Translations under genes and position numbers: made by a program
IMG/VR virus record: IMGVR_UViG_3300001765_000052
DNA from: a virus
DNA: 64,000 nucleotides
Reading direction: 5' to 3' (one strand)
The notes under the pieces: generated by a model
The model's input: the letters and a program-made list of their open reading frames with translations, nothing else
Told to the model about the DNA's origin: nothing
Database searches by the model: none
Shown: positions 3,031 to 49,546 of the stretch, piece after piece
How the letters are laid out: each line of letters begins with the position of its first letter
How positions within the stretch are numbered: the stretch's first letter is position 1

Positions 3031-3331
3031 ATTATTTTATTTTTAAGCTTCTACACATCTCTGTGTAGAACAGACCATATCTTCACCCTTCTATTGCTAG
3101 TTAGGGTGTCTCCCATTTCCCTACCACTTGGCAGGTACGAGCAGCTACGCTCTGGCCGTTGAGCCTTACCCATATCTTTCGACTTAGGGTCTTGGTTGCT
3201 GATTGACTCTACCTAATATTTTTCAAACATATCATAACCTGCTTTCGCGGATATTGTAGTATATTAGTTTAGCAAGTTATTCCAGCAATTAAAGAGATTA
3301 TCTTCTGTAATATTACTATTACAGGACGCTA
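3027..3331 (-). ncRNA. Group I (IA2-like) ribozyme core without its own splice sites, overlapping the DNA polymerase stop codon
   Basis: Minus strand: P2 CUGUAAUA-GUAA-UAUUACAG, P AAUUGCUGGAA (3290-3280), Q AAUCAGCA, R CUCAACGGCCA, S AAGAUAUGGUCU (P7 GGCCA/UGGUC), P7.1/P7.2, P8, P9 hairpin 3070-3049, then a terminator. Confidence 0.9.
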
Positions 3332-3536
3332 GTATTTGTTTTTTCAAATTCAGTTAAAAGCATATCGAGTGAGGGTAATTTAAATAGACTACAAGCGATC
3401 TCTACTGAATTAGTAAAACCACCTGATAAATTTATCCCACTCATTCTTCTAGCTCTATCTTCTATTGAATCTATCTGTATTAATTCTCTACTGGTAGTTT
3501 CTTTAGATATGTTAAAACAAATACCCCCGTTCGGGT
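3319..3536 (-). CDS. DNA polymerase subunit, exon 3 ((Y)PNGGICFNISKETTSREL...TNTSVL*)
   Basis: Open frame with no start codon; completes motif A after removal of 3537..3586. Confidence 0.85.
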
Positions 3537-3702: not shown

Positions 3703-5416
3703 CTTTGTTTCCGGATCAGTTCGTTATTCTGAACCCGTTGTCTACAAAAGTGACAACTGCTATATGTCTCCATATAGAAAAGACTATATCATTACCCTAT
3801 ATCTATCGTAGGGTAGTTACTATTTCCACTCACTTGAGTGTACTCCCTCTCGGGATAGTCGTTGAACCTTACCCATATCCTAACTGGACTTAGGGTCTTG
3901 GCTGCTGATTGACTCTACCTTACTATTTTCAAACTGTGGCTTTGATTTTCATCTAGCAGTAGTTAGTAAGTCTAGCGAGTGGTTCCAGCAATTAAATAAC
4001 TTGTCATTCGTTAATTACTTAACGAAGGGGCCATCTGTTCTAGTTGTTTAATTCATAAAAAGACAAATTTTTACCTTTAATTTTTCTAATTCCATGACAC
4101 GTCTTTTCAATCTGGGCTATTGAACTATTTAATTCTTTAGCTGCTATTTTAGACGATGCATAGAAAGCGATTTCATTTCCATTCTCATCTCTAGATATTA
4201 TTCCTCTACCACCGGTAGTCGGAAATTCTCTATAGATAAGAAGCTCTTTATCAGAAAACACAGGCCACTCTATATTAAGAGTTTTGTATTTGAAAATAAA
4301 ACCATGTAAAGGTCGAGAACGAACACCGTTTACGTGTTCTCGGATTGCTGTTATATGCACCCCAGTACCATCTGAAGCAGAATCTATTCCTGAGAAAATT
4401 ATTATTTCACCACTGAATATATCTTTAGCCATAACAGTGAAATAACCACCAGAGTTTTTTATTCTCTGATCGGTTATCGGCCAATCCTTTTCTACTTTCC
4501 GTTTAAATATCCAACCATCTTCATAAAAGTATCTACGTTGTTCGTTTAATCTATTAGAAATAACCTGTGGAGAAATATTAGTTTCTTTTGAGGCTTTTTC
4601 CAGTGACATGAATTCAAACGTAATTCCAGTTATTAAATTTTTAGCTGATACAGGAATTGTGCTATTAGGCATAAGTCCATAATCTAATGCATGTTGGTTA
4701 TTTTGGGAATATGTTACCCATTCTAAATTATCTAGATTGTCAAATCCGGGAATTCCATTTTTATGATTGATTACTAATTTAAATGGACTTTTCGGATAAT
4801 GTATAAAAGTCAAACCAAGTGCCCTATGCCGAGAAATGTTTTTTGACTTCTCGTTATCCGAATTAGCCCACGCTTTAGCGTATCCACCTTTAATATTTTT
4901 CTTTTCTTGGTATTTAGTAAAGCACCAAGATTGAAAACTATCGTTTCTTATACTGTACAATATTCCTTCTTTTGAAATAGCGTATCTAGTATAATAAGGA
5001 ACATAATAAAACCCAGGTTTGTTTTCTAATTCAATTGGGCCATTATTGAAACCATAATAAATATTGATAGTATTTGTGTTATTTGGATTCTCATCGATAT
5101 AACGTGCTTCGATTCTATTCCATAAACACGTTGGTAGATTAACTGAATATTTAACTATTGCTATTATTACTCCTAACTCGTAATATTTTGCACCGTCTAC
5201 CCATTCTATCCAAACTTTTTTACACCTATCTATTTTTATGACTTCAATTAGGTTTTCATTTGAATCAAAAATATCTCCAAATTTATTTAGGTAATATCTT
5301 CCGTTACTAAACGGCAAAACTTTCTTTTCTTCAAAATAAAACATACGAAACCTTAATTGTAGATTATCATACAATATATATTAAGGTCTCATAAAATATG
5401 TTAAGAACAATTTAAA
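3703..5416 (-). mobile_element. Group I intron (IA2-like, 1714 nt) with HNH gene in the P1 loop
   Basis: P AAUUGCUGGAA (3993-3983), Q AAUCAGCAG, R GUUCAACGACUA, S GAUAUAGUCU; 5' exon GGGU pairs IGS GCCC (4031-4028); ends CAAAG; splicing gives SGWV-VMLPAH. Confidence 0.92.
4040..5344 (-). CDS. Intron-encoded HNH homing endonuclease with NUMOD1/IENR1-like repeats
   Basis: SRHRALGLTFI..VINHKNGIPG..NLEWVTYSQNNQHA; ATG 5344 preceded by AAGG (track start 5374). Confidence 0.9.
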   Translation of the reverse strand: MFYFEEKKVLPFSNGRYYLNKFGDIFDSNENLIEVIKIDRCKKVWIEWVDGAKYYELGVIIAIVKYSVNLPTCLWNRIEARYIDENPNNTNTINIYYGFNNGPIELENKPGFYYVPYYTRYAISKEGILYSIRNDSFQSWCFTKYQEKKNIKGGYAKAWANSDNEKSKNISRHRALGLTFIHYPKSPFKLVINHKNGIPGFDNLDNLEWVTYSQNNQHALDYGLMPNSTIPVSAKNLITGITFEFMSLEKASKETNISPQVISNRLNEQRRYFYEDGWIFKRKVEKDWPITDQRIKNSGGYFTVMAKDIFSGEIIIFSGIDSASDGTGVHITAIREHVNGVRSRPLHGFIFKYKTLNIEWPVFSDKELLIYREFPTTGGRGIISRDENGNEIAFYASSKIAAKELNSSIAQIEKTCHGIRKIKGKNLSFYELNN

Positions 5417-47868: not shown

Positions 47869-47945
47869 CCACTAGTGGCCAAGTCGGGTTTAAGGCAACG
47901 ACCTCATAAGTCGTCGATTCATTGGTTCAAATCCAATCTAGTGGA
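47869..47945 (+). tRNA. tRNA with CAU anticodon (probably Ile2, otherwise elongator Met); CCA not encoded
   Basis: CCACTAG/CTAGTGG acceptor, GCC/GGC D-stem, ACGAC-CTCATAA-GTCGT, ATTGG-TTCAAAT-CCAAT. Confidence 0.9.
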
Positions 47946-47968
47946 CAAACTACTCTCGTTTACATAAA

Positions 47969-48190
47969 ATGAAATTTAAAATGGATAATGCAAATACAAA
48001 TCAAACTAAACTTGAAATAGATTTAGAAGCTGTTAAAAATGCATTAAGCGATTTTGTTCAAGGTTATCCGGAATTAGATCGGTTAATTAAAGAATCTGAT
48101 TCGTTTGAATTAAAATGCAATAAAGGTACATTAAATCTTACTGTTGTAAATACTGGTTTGGTTACTACGTATTCTAAACATTTAAGATGA
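47969..48190 (+). CDS. Hypothetical protein
   Basis: Overlaps the start of the TilS-like gene. Confidence 0.55.
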   Translation: MKFKMDNANTNQTKLEIDLEAVKNALSDFVQGYPELDRLIKESDSFELKCNKGTLNLTVVNTGLVTTYSKHLR

Positions 48191-48798
48191 AAATCTATTT
48201 TCTTAAATCAGCACCAAAAGAATGTTATCTTGCTTTTTCTGGTGGAGTAGATTCAGTGGTATTATTGGATCTATTAATTAGTAAAAAGGTAGATGTAACA
48301 TTAGTTTGGGTGGATCATAACACGTCATGGTGCAAACAAGAATTTGAGTTTGCGAGAGAAACAGCCAAAAAATATAAACTTGAATTAGTTTGTTATAAAA
48401 TTAATCTATTTGACAAATCTACTTCACTAGAATGCTTTTGGTCTAGAGAAAGAAACAGAATATTTCAATCTTTAGATAAAAAAGTATTAGTTGGACACAC
48501 GTTGGATGATGCAATGGAATGGTATGTAATGTCAGCATTCCAAGGAACTGTAAAGTTATTAGATTATCAAAATCAGAATGTTCTTAGGCCATTATTAACA
48601 ACATCCAAAGAAAAGATTTTACAGTATGCAAATAGAAATGATTTGGTGTATCTAATAGATCCTTCAAATTACGATTCTGAATTTAATCTAAGGAATAAAG
48701 TTAGATTAAATTTAATACCGGAAGTGTTAAATTGTTTTCCTGGGTTACGCACAACAGTAGCAAAACTGATTCGTAGAAAAGAGTTTAAAAATGCTTAA
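48187..48798 (+). CDS. tilS: tRNA(Ile)-lysidine synthetase-like protein, catalytic PP-loop domain only
   Basis: AFSGGVDS, VDH, GHTLDD..E, RPLL, DPSN, RNKVR. Confidence 0.85.
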   Translation: MKIYFLKSAPKECYLAFSGGVDSVVLLDLLISKKVDVTLVWVDHNTSWCKQEFEFARETAKKYKLELVCYKINLFDKSTSLECFWSRERNRIFQSLDKKVLVGHTLDDAMEWYVMSAFQGTVKLLDYQNQNVLRPLLTTSKEKILQYANRNDLVYLIDPSNYDSEFNLRNKVRLNLIPEVLNCFPGLRTTVAKLIRRKEFKNA

Positions 48799-49003
48799 CA
48801 TAATTATTGAGGGTCCAGATAAAGCTGGTAAAGGACATTTGATTGCACTCATTAGCCGTAAACTAAAGCAATCAGGATTGAATGTAACTATTCAATCTGA
48901 AACAACACACAATGCACCAAAGATTGCAAAGACTGACGATGAATTAGTTGACAGGTTAAAAGATGTCGAGATCTTTATAAAAGAAATGCAAACATTTTCT
49001 TAG
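48791..49003 (+). CDS. Small P-loop-containing protein
   Basis: IIIEGPDKAGKG. Confidence 0.55.
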   Translation: MLNIIIEGPDKAGKGHLIALISRKLKQSGLNVTIQSETTHNAPKIAKTDDELVDRLKDVEIFIKEMQTFS

Positions 49004-49047
49004 AGTGACAAAGTTAATTAGGAAAAAAGAATTTAAGTAAAGTTTTA

Positions 49048-49135
49048 CCGCCTTGTCCCAATACCAGCCTTCTAAGCTGGCGTCGTTAAACAATTGGATG
49101 GATGACAAGAGGCTCGTTTCCTCCAGGGCGGTCCA
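49048..49135 (+). tRNA. Non-canonical tRNA-like RNA, UCU anticodon, 8/4 fold, no D-arm, long variable arm
   Basis: CCGCCTTG/CAGGGCGG + T-CCA; CCAGC-CTTCTAA-GCTGG; GTCGT/ATGAC; GAGG-CTCGTTT-CCTC. Confidence 0.75.
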
Positions 49136-49152
49136 TACATTTTGTACATTAA

Positions 49153-49484
49153 AAGTTTGCCGGCATTTTAGCATATTAGTGTTTGTAGTTCATATGTGTA
49201 TCTAATCACGAACGAAAAGCACCAGGCCCTAAGCCTGCATTAAAAAGATTCTGAACTGACAGAATTAACCAATTAGGTATCAGTAAACCAAATTTAAGAT
49301 CAAGATGTGTACGGTGTCTTGTGTGTACTAACGTATTGTAGTTCTAATGTGTGTATAATCACGAACGAAAATACGGGGTGACGATACTGGGTTGTATTGA
49401 AGTCCCCTCCTTTCGAGGGCTTGCGTCGGACAGGCTTAACAAATTATACATCCGACAAATCCTAAATTATGGATTCGGCAACTT
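49153..49484 (+). ncRNA. Structured ncRNA candidate containing two copies of a double-pseudoknot motif
   Basis: Closing stem AAGTTTGCCG/CGGCAACTT; duplicated modules with compensatory changes. Confidence 0.75.
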
Positions 49485-49546
49485 CGTTAAATGTTTGGTG
49501 TCAACTAAACATAATTTTGTGTTAATATTCTTGTCAAGGAATTAAA

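What the first reader, a model, noticed from the sequence alone, without database searches (positions are those of the whole stretch)
49048..49135. D-armless 8/4 tRNA-like RNA with UCU anticodon
It has an 8-bp acceptor stem, 4-bp T-stem with atypical loop CUCGUUU, encoded CCA, a normal anticodon arm (UCU, reads AGA) and a long variable arm. Only 8 nt (UCCCAAUA) replace the D-arm, and CCAAU there is complementary to AUUGG in the variable loop, giving a possible compensating pseudoknot. The 8/4 geometry with long V-arm recalls allo-tRNAs, which can have an identity different from their anticodon. It could supply the AGA codon common in this genome, mis-decode it, or act as a decoy for anticodon nucleases (inference).
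Basis: partly seen in the sequence, partly recalled or inferred. Interest (0 to 1): 0.7.

Follow-up and report, generated by a model that had tools for sequence, protein, structure and literature searches.

The report
Rewired, pseudoknotted phage arginine tRNA
This 88-base gene of an uncultured giant phage is very probably a working arginine tRNA for the codon AGA whose core is wired differently from the textbook cloverleaf. It belongs to a widespread phage family that gene finders miss and that I found in no paper.

Summary

The element is not a decayed orphan. It belongs to a conserved family of phage RNAs.
- About 13 distinct relatives share its exact layout: an 8-bp acceptor stem, a 4-bp T stem, no D hairpin, a 5-bp helix closed around the anticodon arm, and a second 3-5-bp helix knotted with it.
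- Both knot helices and the eighth acceptor pair keep pairing through compensatory changes.
- A simpler 7/5 version lies in 203 GenBank phage records, including Felix O1, and is mostly unannotated.

Family copies sit inside tRNA arrays, usually where no ordinary tRNA-Arg(UCU) exists. The same core also carries CCU, ACG and GCG, which are all arginine anticodons. The bacterial ArgRS identity elements are all present: a G-G-A motif (candidate A20), C35, U36 and an allowed discriminator. AGA makes up 56% of this phage's arginine codons.

Best reading: a functional non-cloverleaf tRNA-Arg(UCU). Kinship with allo-tRNAs, mis-decoding and a decoy role are not supported.

One caveat: this copy's T-loop, CUCGUUU, is unique in the family.

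Earlier reports of this scan described the same class on other DNA. Seven literature searches found no description.

The parts
49048..49055 (+). Acceptor stem, 5' strand (8 nt, CCGCCUUG)
   Evidence: Pairs with 49124-49131. All 8 pairs show changes on both sides across relatives, including the eighth pair.
49056..49057 (+). Two-base connector (UC)
   Evidence: It is 2 nt in 11 of the 12 type 2 rows of the model alignment and 3 nt in L265. The strict parse gives UC, CC, UU or UA.
49058..49062 (+). Helix A, 5' strand (CCAAU): D-stem equivalent that runs straight into the anticodon arm
   Evidence: Pairs with 49093-49097. It is paired in 7 of 7 sequences, with 4 of 5 pairs compensatory. RNAalifold predicts it unaided.
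49063..49063 (+). Invariant unpaired A between helix A and the anticodon stem (position-26-like)
   Evidence: Invariant column A16 in alignments A4 and A5.
49064..49080 (+). Anticodon arm: CCAGC, loop CUUCUAA, GCUGG. The anticodon UCU is at 49071-49073.
   Evidence: The 17-mer occurs in 74 viral contig stretches. Most of those contigs hold a tRNA-Arg with a full-length 5' side (D arm); 62 of 93 distinct CUUCUAA tRNAs parsed across all loci do. The loop is invariant in the family.
49082..49085 (+). Stem B, 5' strand (GUCG)
   Evidence: Pairs with 49103-49106. By fixed anchors, the three core pairs hold in 10 of 12 relatives with GC/AU, UA/AU/GC/CG and CG/UA/GC exchanges. See also columns 35-37 with 59-61.
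49086..49092 (+). Loop UUAAACA between stem B 5' strand and helix A 3' strand (conserved UAA core)
   Evidence: T40, A41 and A42 are invariant in A5. The motif is shared with the 7/5 type. The GUUAA search required this motif; the search did not.
49093..49097 (+). Helix A, 3' strand (AUUGG)
   Evidence: See helix A, 5' strand.
49100..49102 (+). G-G-A motif, the candidate equivalent of G18, G19 and the ArgRS determinant A20
   Evidence: Invariant in all type 2 relatives, and present as GGA in most type 1 copies. The role of A20 is from PMC9976931. The equivalence is inferred.
49103..49106 (+). Stem B, 3' strand (UGAC). It forms the pseudoknot with helix A.
49109..49123 (+). T arm: 4-bp stem GAGG/CCUC with the atypical loop CUCGUUU
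   Evidence: The stem covaries (AU/GC, GC/UA). All 11 other type 2 relatives have a loop of the form UUC-R-A-W-K. C at position 54 and U at position 58 are unique to this copy and to the related phage L258.
49124..49131 (+). Acceptor stem, 3' strand (CAGGGCGG)
49132..49135 (+). Discriminator U and encoded CCA
   Evidence: CCA is encoded in 9 of 12 type 2 relatives. The discriminator is U, A or G.
47869..47946 (+). Context: tRNA with CAU anticodon, the only tRNA that the finders call in the window
   Evidence: ARAGORN and Rfam RF00005, 58.6 bits.
48187..48798 (+). Context: 203-aa TilS-like PP-loop protein, ending 250 nt upstream of the element
   Evidence: Pfam PF01171, E = 2.4e-25. Some relatives are named tRNA(Ile)-lysidine synthase by their sources.

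Best explanation
The element is a gene for a functional arginine tRNA that reads AGA, and probably AGG by wobble. It has a non-cloverleaf core.

Shown by sequence and covariation:
- An 8-bp acceptor stem plus a 4-bp T stem gives the usual 12-bp acceptor branch.
- The anticodon arm is that of ordinary phage tRNA-Arg(UCU).
- There is no D hairpin. Five bases just 5' of the anticodon arm pair with five bases 3' of it (helix A).
- The bases right after the anticodon stem pair with the bases right after a G-G-A motif (stem B). Helix A and stem B together form a pseudoknot.

Inferred:
- Helix A stacks on the anticodon stem where the D stem normally sits. That stack is 5 pairs, one unpaired A, then 5 pairs, so the distance from anticodon to elbow is kept.
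- The G-G-A plays G18, G19 and A20. The two G touch U55 and C56 of the T loop, and the A is read by ArgRS.
- Every outer surface is preserved and only the inner wiring differs. Those surfaces are the ones used by RNase P, ArgRS, EF-Tu and the ribosome: the 12-bp branch, CCA, the elbow and the anticodon loop.

The phage would use this tRNA to supply AGA, its main arginine codon. This would sit alongside the neighbouring tRNA(CAU) and TilS-like gene, which would serve AUA.
For: Family and structure:
- A MAFFT alignment of 7 distinct relatives gives 95% paired cells and 19 of 27 pairs with double changes. None of 500 shuffles reaches this, and slid registers collapse.
- RNAalifold finds helix A unaided.
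- Stem B holds when positions are fixed by anchors rather than chosen for pairing.
- A covariance model separates type 2 (72-101 bits), type 1 (36-50 bits) and ordinary tRNAs (28 bits or less).

tRNA context:
- Copies lie in tRNA arrays on the same strand, 4-16 nt from their neighbours: L256, L268, L244 and Acinetobacter phage ME3.
- In Felixounavirus REP8 the 7/5 type sits inside an array of 23 ARAGORN-called tRNAs, 24 matches to the Rfam tRNA model. That array has no ordinary arginine tRNA.
- A 292-kb phage has a cloverleaf Arg(ACG) but no cloverleaf Arg(UCU).
- The closest relatives of this phage by TilS (L076, L078, L080) carry an ordinary tRNA-Arg(UCU) near TilS, where this window has the rewired one.

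Arginine identity:
- The same core carries UCU, CCU, ACG and GCG anticodons, all arginine.
- G-G-A, C35 and U36 are invariant. The discriminators seen (U, A, G) are all allowed for bacterial ArgRS (PMC9976931).

Demand: AGA is 56% of arginine codons, 19.2 per 1000.

Maintenance: the element has 54.5% G+C in a 30% genome, and all 26 stem pairs are intact.
Against: - No expression, processing or charging data exist for any member.
- This copy's T loop, CUCGUUU, has C at position 54 and U at position 58. All 11 other type 2 relatives keep U and A there. That pair normally closes the T loop, so this copy may work less well or be newly disabled.
- The only close relative, L258, is identical over the element. 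Its flanks are equally conserved, with 1 difference in 262 nt, so it gives no test.
- The three-dimensional arrangement is inferred, not modelled.
- One contig, L272, has both an ordinary tRNA-Arg(UCU) and a 7/5 rewired one. The rewired form is therefore not always a plain replacement.
- Only 64 kb of a genome of at least 143 kb was available (one search gives the contig length), so an ordinary tRNA-Arg(UCU) elsewhere cannot be ruled out.
Confidence: 0.75

Rival explanations
1. It is a working tRNA-Arg whose rewired core exists to escape something aimed at ordinary tRNA. That could be a host tRNA-cleaving defence or toxin, or host modification or decay. Alternatively it is a pure decoy that soaks up such an enzyme. 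On the first version this adds to the main reading rather than replacing it.
For: - The class is almost confined to phages. The type 1 pattern hit 6 places in 185,579 species genomes, and at least two of them are short MAG contigs packed with tRNA genes.
- One contig carries an ordinary and a rewired tRNA-Arg(UCU) side by side, which a plain supply role does not explain.
- tRNA-cutting defences do hit tRNA-Arg among others (retron Eco2, PMC12916289).
Against: - No defence or counter-defence gene is linked to the element in the window.
- The anticodon loop, the usual target of anticodon nucleases, is unchanged from ordinary tRNA-Arg(UCU).
- A pure decoy would not need a conserved 12-bp branch, CCA, G-G-A and arginine-only anticodons.
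Confidence: 0.12
2. This copy is a recently disabled member of the rewired family. The family is functional, but here the two T-loop changes (C54, U58) have broken the elbow and the gene is on its way to decay.
For: The T loop CUCGUUU is unique among the 12 type 2 sequences compared. Rfam's tRNA model gives 31 bits to a 7/5 member and nothing here.
Against: - All 26 stem pairs are intact, including compensatory differences from relatives.
- G+C is 54.5% against 30% around it.
- U55, C56 and G57 of the loop and the G-G-A partner are kept.
- No other arginine tRNA was found in the 64-kb window, although AGA is the main arginine codon.
- A second, distinct phage (L258) keeps the identical sequence.
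Confidence: 0.1
3. It is an allo-tRNA-like adaptor whose amino-acid identity differs from its anticodon, for example serine at AGA. Or it is a tRNA-shaped RNA with a job outside translation, such as a regulator, a primer or a processing signal.
For: The 8/4 branch is shared with allo-tRNAs, some of which occur in phages (PMC5389517). The element lies next to other uncatalogued structured RNAs at 49171-49516 (earlier notes).
Against: - There is no D arm and no free long variable arm. The discriminator is not fixed as G.
- Four anticodons on this core are all arginine.
- The anticodon loop is invariant and the copies sit in tRNA arrays.
Confidence: 0.03

Closest known systems
Ordinary bacterial and phage tRNA-Arg(UCU), class I cloverleaf, Rfam RF00005. 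Examples here: L076:3221-3297, L078:8982-9058, L080:7998-8075.
   Same: - Identical anticodon arm sequence.
- A 12-bp acceptor branch, a discriminator followed by CCA, and a G-G-A motif.
- The same place in tRNA clusters and next to TilS.
- The same expected job, reading AGA.
   Different: - No D hairpin.
- The D-stem equivalent is closed around the anticodon arm.
- The D-loop-like G-G-A lies 3' of the anticodon arm.
- An extra helix makes a pseudoknot.
- 8/4 instead of 7/5.
- Not found by ARAGORN or by the Rfam model.
The 7/5 'type 1' rewired tRNA-Arg of Felixounavirus (Felix O1, REP8), rV5-like and Klebsiella phages. It is uncatalogued, and labelled 'tRNA-OTHER' in some GenBank records.
   Same: The same rewiring, with a covarying helix across the anticodon arm, then UAA-type loops and G-G-A 3' of it. 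It also sits in tRNA arrays.
   Different: Type 1 has a 7-bp acceptor stem, U8 and a 5-bp T stem. Its helix A is 3-4 bp and its D-loop-like segment is longer (UAAYUGGAGUAU). It has no covarying stem B. The window's copy is the 8/4 pseudoknotted type.
(8/4) allo-tRNAs and (8/4) tRNA-Ser and tRNA-His of bacteria and phages (Mukai et al., PMC5389517)
   Same: A 12-bp acceptor branch split 8/4, and occurrence in phage tRNA clusters.
   Different: The paper's introduction counts the D arm and the V arm as parts of the anticodon branch, and the text never mentions a pseudoknot or UCU. From memory, allo-tRNAs have a free long variable arm and are serine-type, with anticodons that may not match. Here there is no D arm, the variable region is knotted, and all anticodons are arginine.
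Metazoan mitochondrial D-armless tRNA-Ser(AGN/AGY) (reviewed in PMC4394434; recalled from memory)
   Same: A short replacement loop stands where the D arm should be, and the tRNA reads AGN codons. From memory, published models extend the anticodon helix with bases from both sides.
   Different: The mitochondrial forms have lost the G18-G19 and T-loop contacts and have no second helix or pseudoknot. They are organellar and carry serine. Here G-G-A and U55-C56 are kept and the setting is a phage of bacteria.
Permuted tRNA genes of Cyanidioschyzon merolae (PMC3728597)
   Same: The order of tRNA segments in the gene differs from the textbook order.
   Different: There the whole gene is a rotation, with the 3' half before the 5' half. 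From memory, processing then restores an ordinary cloverleaf. Here the two ends are normal. Only the inner D and anticodon segments are swapped, so the mature RNA itself must be non-cloverleaf.

Membership tests
Canonical tRNA (Rfam RF00005 / ARAGORN cloverleaf) | Reaches the family's gathering score, or is called by a tRNA finder | tested here: not met
   No RF00005 match at E <= 10. ARAGORN finds only the tRNA(CAU) at 47869-47946.
Canonical tRNA (Rfam RF00005 / ARAGORN cloverleaf) | D hairpin between the acceptor and anticodon stems | tested here: not met
   Only 8 nt lie between the two stems. Five of them pair with bases 3' of the anticodon arm.
Canonical tRNA (Rfam RF00005 / ARAGORN cloverleaf) | 5-bp anticodon stem and 7-nt loop with U33 and a purine at 37 | tested here: met
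   CCAGC, CUUCUAA, GCUGG. The arm is identical to that of ordinary tRNA-Arg(UCU).
Canonical tRNA (Rfam RF00005 / ARAGORN cloverleaf) | 12-bp acceptor/T branch, discriminator and CCA | tested here: met
   8 + 4 bp, then U, then CCA.
Canonical tRNA (Rfam RF00005 / ARAGORN cloverleaf) | T loop U54-U55-C56-R57-A58 | tested here: not met
   The loop is CUCGUUU. Positions 55-57 fit, but 54 is C and 58 is U.
Rewired phage tRNA-Arg, 8/4 pseudoknotted type (uncatalogued; defined here by model R2 and alignment A5) | Scores with the family model far above ordinary tRNAs | tested here: met
   101.5 bits, against 28 bits or less for ordinary tRNAs. The window sequence is part of the seed, so its own score is partly circular. 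Six relatives outside the seed (L268, L256, L191, L265, L021 and the 5'-truncated L257) score 72-99 bits.
Rewired phage tRNA-Arg, 8/4 pseudoknotted type (uncatalogued; defined here by model R2 and alignment A5) | Helix A (5 bp) closed around the anticodon arm, followed by an invariant A | tested here: met
   CCAAU with AUUGG. Paired in 7 of 7 sequences, with 4 of 5 pairs compensatory.
Rewired phage tRNA-Arg, 8/4 pseudoknotted type (uncatalogued; defined here by model R2 and alignment A5) | Stem B between the bases after the anticodon stem and the bases after G-G-A | tested here: met
   GUCG with UGAC. The core pairs covary in 10 of 12 relatives by fixed anchors.
Rewired phage tRNA-Arg, 8/4 pseudoknotted type (uncatalogued; defined here by model R2 and alignment A5) | G-G-A 1-3 nt after helix A, and an arginine anticodon | tested here: met
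   AU-GGA at 49098-49102 and anticodon UCU.
Rewired phage tRNA-Arg, 8/4 pseudoknotted type (uncatalogued; defined here by model R2 and alignment A5) | Charged with arginine and used at AGA codons | not testable with these tools
   This needs charging and translation assays. The only support is indirect: identity elements, arginine-only anticodons and array context.
(8/4) allo-tRNA (PMC5389517) | 12-bp branch split 8/4 or 9/3 | tested here: met
   The eighth acceptor pair covaries.
(8/4) allo-tRNA (PMC5389517) | D arm present and a free long variable arm | tested here: not met
   There is no D hairpin. The apparent variable hairpin is stem B of a pseudoknot, and its loop holds the helix A 3' strand.
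(8/4) allo-tRNA (PMC5389517) | Serine-type identity, independent of the anticodon | tested here: inconclusive
   Charging was not tested. The discriminator is U here and varies in relatives, and all anticodons on this core are arginine. Both argue against serine identity.
Mitochondrial D-armless tRNA-Ser(AGN) | D-replacement loop with loss of the D-loop/T-loop contacts; organellar | tested here: not met
   G-G-A and U55-C56 are kept. The setting is a phiKZ-like phage contig.

The most novel reading that the evidence does not exclude
The rewired core is a natural 'orthogonal chassis' and not a neutral oddity. Phages would have re-threaded the inside of their arginine tRNAs so that ArgRS, EF-Tu and the ribosome still accept them. 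Host enzymes that read the ordinary D-arm core would not: tRNA-directed defence nucleases, toxins, or modification and decay enzymes. That would make this a new class of counter-defence, and a ready-made alternative tRNA scaffold.
Probability: 0.15. Interest if true: 0.92.

Novelty: new variant of a known kind. Interest (0 to 1): 0.8.

Why it matters
The cloverleaf with a D hairpin is treated as universal for tRNAs outside organelles. This finding points to a family of phage arginine tRNAs that reach the same outer shape by a different chain path, in this subtype with a pseudoknot. The family is supported by covariation and reaches classic laboratory phages such as Felix O1.

If they are charged and used, four things follow.
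- The tRNA fold tolerates a change of topology in nature.
- tRNA finders and phage annotations systematically miss one of the commonest phage tRNAs, and phage codon-supply analyses undercount arginine tRNAs.
- ArgRS recognition of A20 can be studied in a new structural frame.
- Genetic-code engineering gains a new natural scaffold.

Cultured hosts and phages are available (Salmonella/E. coli with Felix O1, Acinetobacter with ME3), so all of this is directly testable.

Tried and rejected
Steps that led nowhere:
- DNA similarity of 48900-49300 to GenBank phages gave no match.
- No whole genome is held for this window.
- The TilS-like protein alone found no related viral loci. An alignment of its relatives did.
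- Fold energy alone is not significant (z = -1.15).
- The sigma-70 promoter and terminator scan is at chance level. It is also not suited to phiKZ-like phages.
- L258 looked like an independent test of the odd T loop, because it is a distinct phage with 67-95% identical blocks. The 262 nt around the element differ at only one base, so it says nothing.

Readings considered and rejected:
- My first impression was that AAUUGGAU in the window is the displaced D loop. This was wrong. In the family, AUUGG is the helix A 3' strand, and the conserved G-G-A lies 2 nt further on.
- A whole-gene circular permutation is rejected. The two ends are normal and the segment order is not a rotation.
- A chimera of two tandem tRNAs is rejected. 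There is one anticodon arm and a perfect acceptor stem, and the layout is conserved in many unrelated phages.
- A protein-coding reading of the small overlapping frames (49053-49205 on +, 48956-49174 on -) was not pursued. The compensatory changes are those of an RNA.

Unresolved: a possible UAU copy at L047:6283-6364 could not be parsed cleanly, because its acceptor strand overlaps the anticodon stem. I make no claim about it.

Full report
**What is there**

The window is about 30% G+C. It looks like part of a phiKZ-like giant phage.
- It has a phiKZ internal-head-protein domain, a class II ribonucleotide reductase and an NAD ligase.
- It has two group I introns.
- No DNA match exists in GenBank phages, and no whole genome is held.

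There is an 8-bp acceptor stem, then 8 nt where the D arm should be. Next comes a standard anticodon arm with loop CUUCUAA. A 28-nt region follows it. Last come a 4-bp T stem with loop CUCGUUU, discriminator U and CCA.

The same fold is the minimum-energy structure, but its energy is unremarkable (z = -1.15). ARAGORN and Rfam do not see it. The element has 54.5% G+C against 30% around it.

**It is a member of a family**

The anticodon arm is letter for letter that of many ordinary phage tRNA-Arg(UCU) genes. A single-sequence covariance model found a second RNA without a D hairpin in an unrelated phage contig (L085).

Three pattern scans followed, one requiring the GUUAA motif and one anchored on the helix A and anticodon-arm segment in two collections. 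They brought in dozens of copies. These fall into two types.

*Type 1 (7/5, ordinary T loop)*
- It has a 3-4-bp helix formed by bases just before the anticodon arm and bases after it.
- Examples of the exchanges are CGUC/GACG, CAGC/GCUG, CAUC/GAUG, CUUA/UAAG and CACA/UGUG.
- The segment UAAYUGGAGUAU follows.

*Type 2 (8/4, the window's kind)*
- Its helix A is 5 bp.
- It has a second helix, stem B. Stem B joins the bases right after the anticodon stem to the bases right after an invariant G-G-A.
- Stem B's 5' strand lies inside helix A and its 3' strand lies outside, so the two helices form a pseudoknot.

**Covariation**

On a MAFFT alignment of seven distinct type 2 sequences, not fitted to any structure, the results are as follows.
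- 95% of cells pair, against 72% in shuffles.
- 19 of 27 pairs change on both sides, and none of 500 shuffles reaches this.
- Sliding the partners by 1-3 columns drops pairing to 30-46%.
- Helix A is paired in all seven sequences, with four of five pairs compensatory. The window has CCAAU/AUUGG, L169 has CUUGC/GCAAG, and L029 has CCGAC/GUCGG.
- The eighth acceptor pair is GC, AU or UA here, and CG in L165. That settles 8/4 against 7/5 with a mismatch.

RNAalifold on the same alignment predicts helix A unaided.

Stem B was checked with positions fixed by anchors, counting from the end of the anticodon stem and from the start of the T stem. No register could therefore be chosen to suit. Its three core pairs hold in 10 of 12 relatives, with GC/AU, UA/AU/GC/CG and CG/UA/GC exchanges.

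A model built from the seven sequences scores type 2 at 72-101 bits, type 1 at 36-50 bits and ordinary tRNAs at 28 bits or less. The window holds one copy only.

**Why a working arginine tRNA is the best reading**

1. *Context.* Type 2 copies lie in tRNA arrays, on the same strand, at tRNA-like spacing.
   - One is 4 nt after a tRNA-Ile(UAU) (L256).
   - One is 12 nt from a tRNA(CAU) (L268).
   - One sits inside a nine-tRNA array (L244).
   - One is 16 nt before a tRNA(CAU) in Acinetobacter phage ME3.
   - Type 1 is in 203 GenBank phage records, including Felix O1. It is mostly unannotated or labelled 'tRNA-OTHER'.
   - In REP8 it sits in an array of 23 ARAGORN-called tRNAs (24 matches to the Rfam tRNA model). 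That array has no ordinary arginine tRNA.
   - A 292-kb phage with about 30 tRNAs has a cloverleaf Arg(ACG) but no cloverleaf Arg(UCU).
   - The nearest relatives of this phage by TilS carry an ordinary tRNA-Arg(UCU) near TilS, where the window has the rewired one.
2. *Identity.* The same core also carries CCU, ACG and GCG anticodons, all arginine.
   - The bacterial ArgRS determinants are A20, C35, U/G36 and A/G/U73 (PMC9976931).
   - C35 and U36 are present. G-G-A offers an A right after two G, as in G18-G19-A20. The discriminators seen are allowed ones.
3. *Demand.* AGA is 56% of arginine codons in 35 long reading frames (19.2 per 1000). ATA is 37% of isoleucine codons, which fits the neighbouring tRNA(CAU) and TilS-like gene.
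4. *Distribution.* The type 1 pattern occurs only six times in one genome each of 185,579 species. At least two of these hits lie on short MAG contigs full of tRNA genes. The class is therefore essentially phage-borne.

**How it probably works (inferred)**

Helix A continues directly into the anticodon stem through one unpaired A. That gives a stack of 5 + 1 + 5 layers, the length of the normal D-stem and anticodon-stem stack.
- Its 5' strand takes the place of positions 22-25.
- Its 3' strand takes the place of positions 10-13 and is followed, as in a normal D loop, by G-G-A.
- In effect the D and anticodon segments are swapped in order, and the chain leaves for the T stem after the D-loop part.
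- Stem B ties the variable-region equivalent to the segment after G-G-A.

The surfaces used by RNase P, EF-Tu, ArgRS and the ribosome are kept. I could not model this in three dimensions.

**Caveats**
- There are no expression or charging data for any member.
- This copy's T loop has C54 and U58, where all 11 other type 2 relatives keep U and A.
- The only close relative, L258, is a distinct phage. It is equally conserved in the flanks, so it is uninformative.
- One contig, L272, has an ordinary and a rewired tRNA-Arg(UCU) together. That leaves room for an added role such as escape from tRNA-directed host enzymes. Nothing in the window bears on that.

**Comparison with what is known**

The allo-tRNA paper shares the 8/4 split, but its text never mentions a pseudoknot or UCU. 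The D arm, free long variable arm and serine identity of allo-tRNAs are from memory.

Mitochondrial D-armless tRNA-Ser(AGN) lacks the G-G and T-loop contacts, by recollection. Permuted red-alga tRNA genes are rotations of the whole gene, which from memory are processed back to a cloverleaf.

Seven full-text searches found no description of this layout. Rfam 15 has no family for it.

Earlier reports of this scan describe the same class on at least eight other genomes. I reached the same reading, before reading them. Their agreement is not independent evidence.

**Verdict**

The element is a new structural variant of a known kind of molecule.

Noticed in passing
L047:12999-13080, L247:2689-2766, L203:3326-3405: The same rewired core (7/5 type) carries other arginine anticodons: CCU, ACG and GCG. 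So the layout is tied to arginine tRNAs in general, not only to UCU.
   Followed up: partly
GenBank phages, e.g. OQ174507.1 5918-5999 (L248:2996-3077) and AF320576.1 25956-26018: The 7/5 rewired tRNA-Arg(UCU) is present in 203 GenBank phage records. These include Felix O1 and other Felixounavirus, rV5-like phages, and Klebsiella, Salmonella, Serratia and Erwinia phages. It is nearly always unannotated, overlaid by a hypothetical protein, or called 'tRNA-OTHER Nd_NNN'.
   Followed up: partly
L272:2444-2522 and L272:2679-2753: A 5.7-kb contig, binned to a Parachlamydia MAG but packed with tRNA genes, holds a rewired and an ordinary tRNA-Arg(UCU) 160 nt apart on the same strand. The rewired form is therefore not always a replacement.
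   Followed up: no
window 47869-47946 and 48187-48798: A tRNA with CAU anticodon lies 240 nt upstream of a 203-aa TilS-like PP-loop protein. ATA is 37% of isoleucine codons. This looks like an AUA-decoding module beside the AGA tRNA. About 70 phage-type relatives of this short TilS exist in metagenomes.
   Followed up: partly
window 48791-49003: A 70-aa reading frame just upstream of the element matches only the first 39 residues (P-loop part) of thymidylate kinase (phrog_761, E = 6e-5). It may be a truncated remnant or a mini-protein.
   Followed up: no
window 49161 onward compared with L258:509-767: The related phage L258 is almost identical up to 26 nt past the element and then diverges sharply. 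About 260 nt in L258 stand where the window begins its two copies of an uncatalogued knotted RNA module (49171-49516; earlier notes). The tRNA gene's 3' end may mark a recombination boundary.
   Followed up: no
L254:6849-6922 (Acinetobacter phage ME3, KU935715): ARAGORN calls a tRNA with CUA anticodon (an amber suppressor type, labelled 'Pyl') in phage ME3. ME3 also carries the 8/4 rewired tRNA-Arg.
   Followed up: no
window 3051-3357 and 3760-4082 (- strand), 4040-5374 (-): Two group I introns lie 400 nt apart on the minus strand (Rfam, 73 and 89 bits), next to a frame with HNH and I-HmuI-like endonuclease domains.
   Followed up: no
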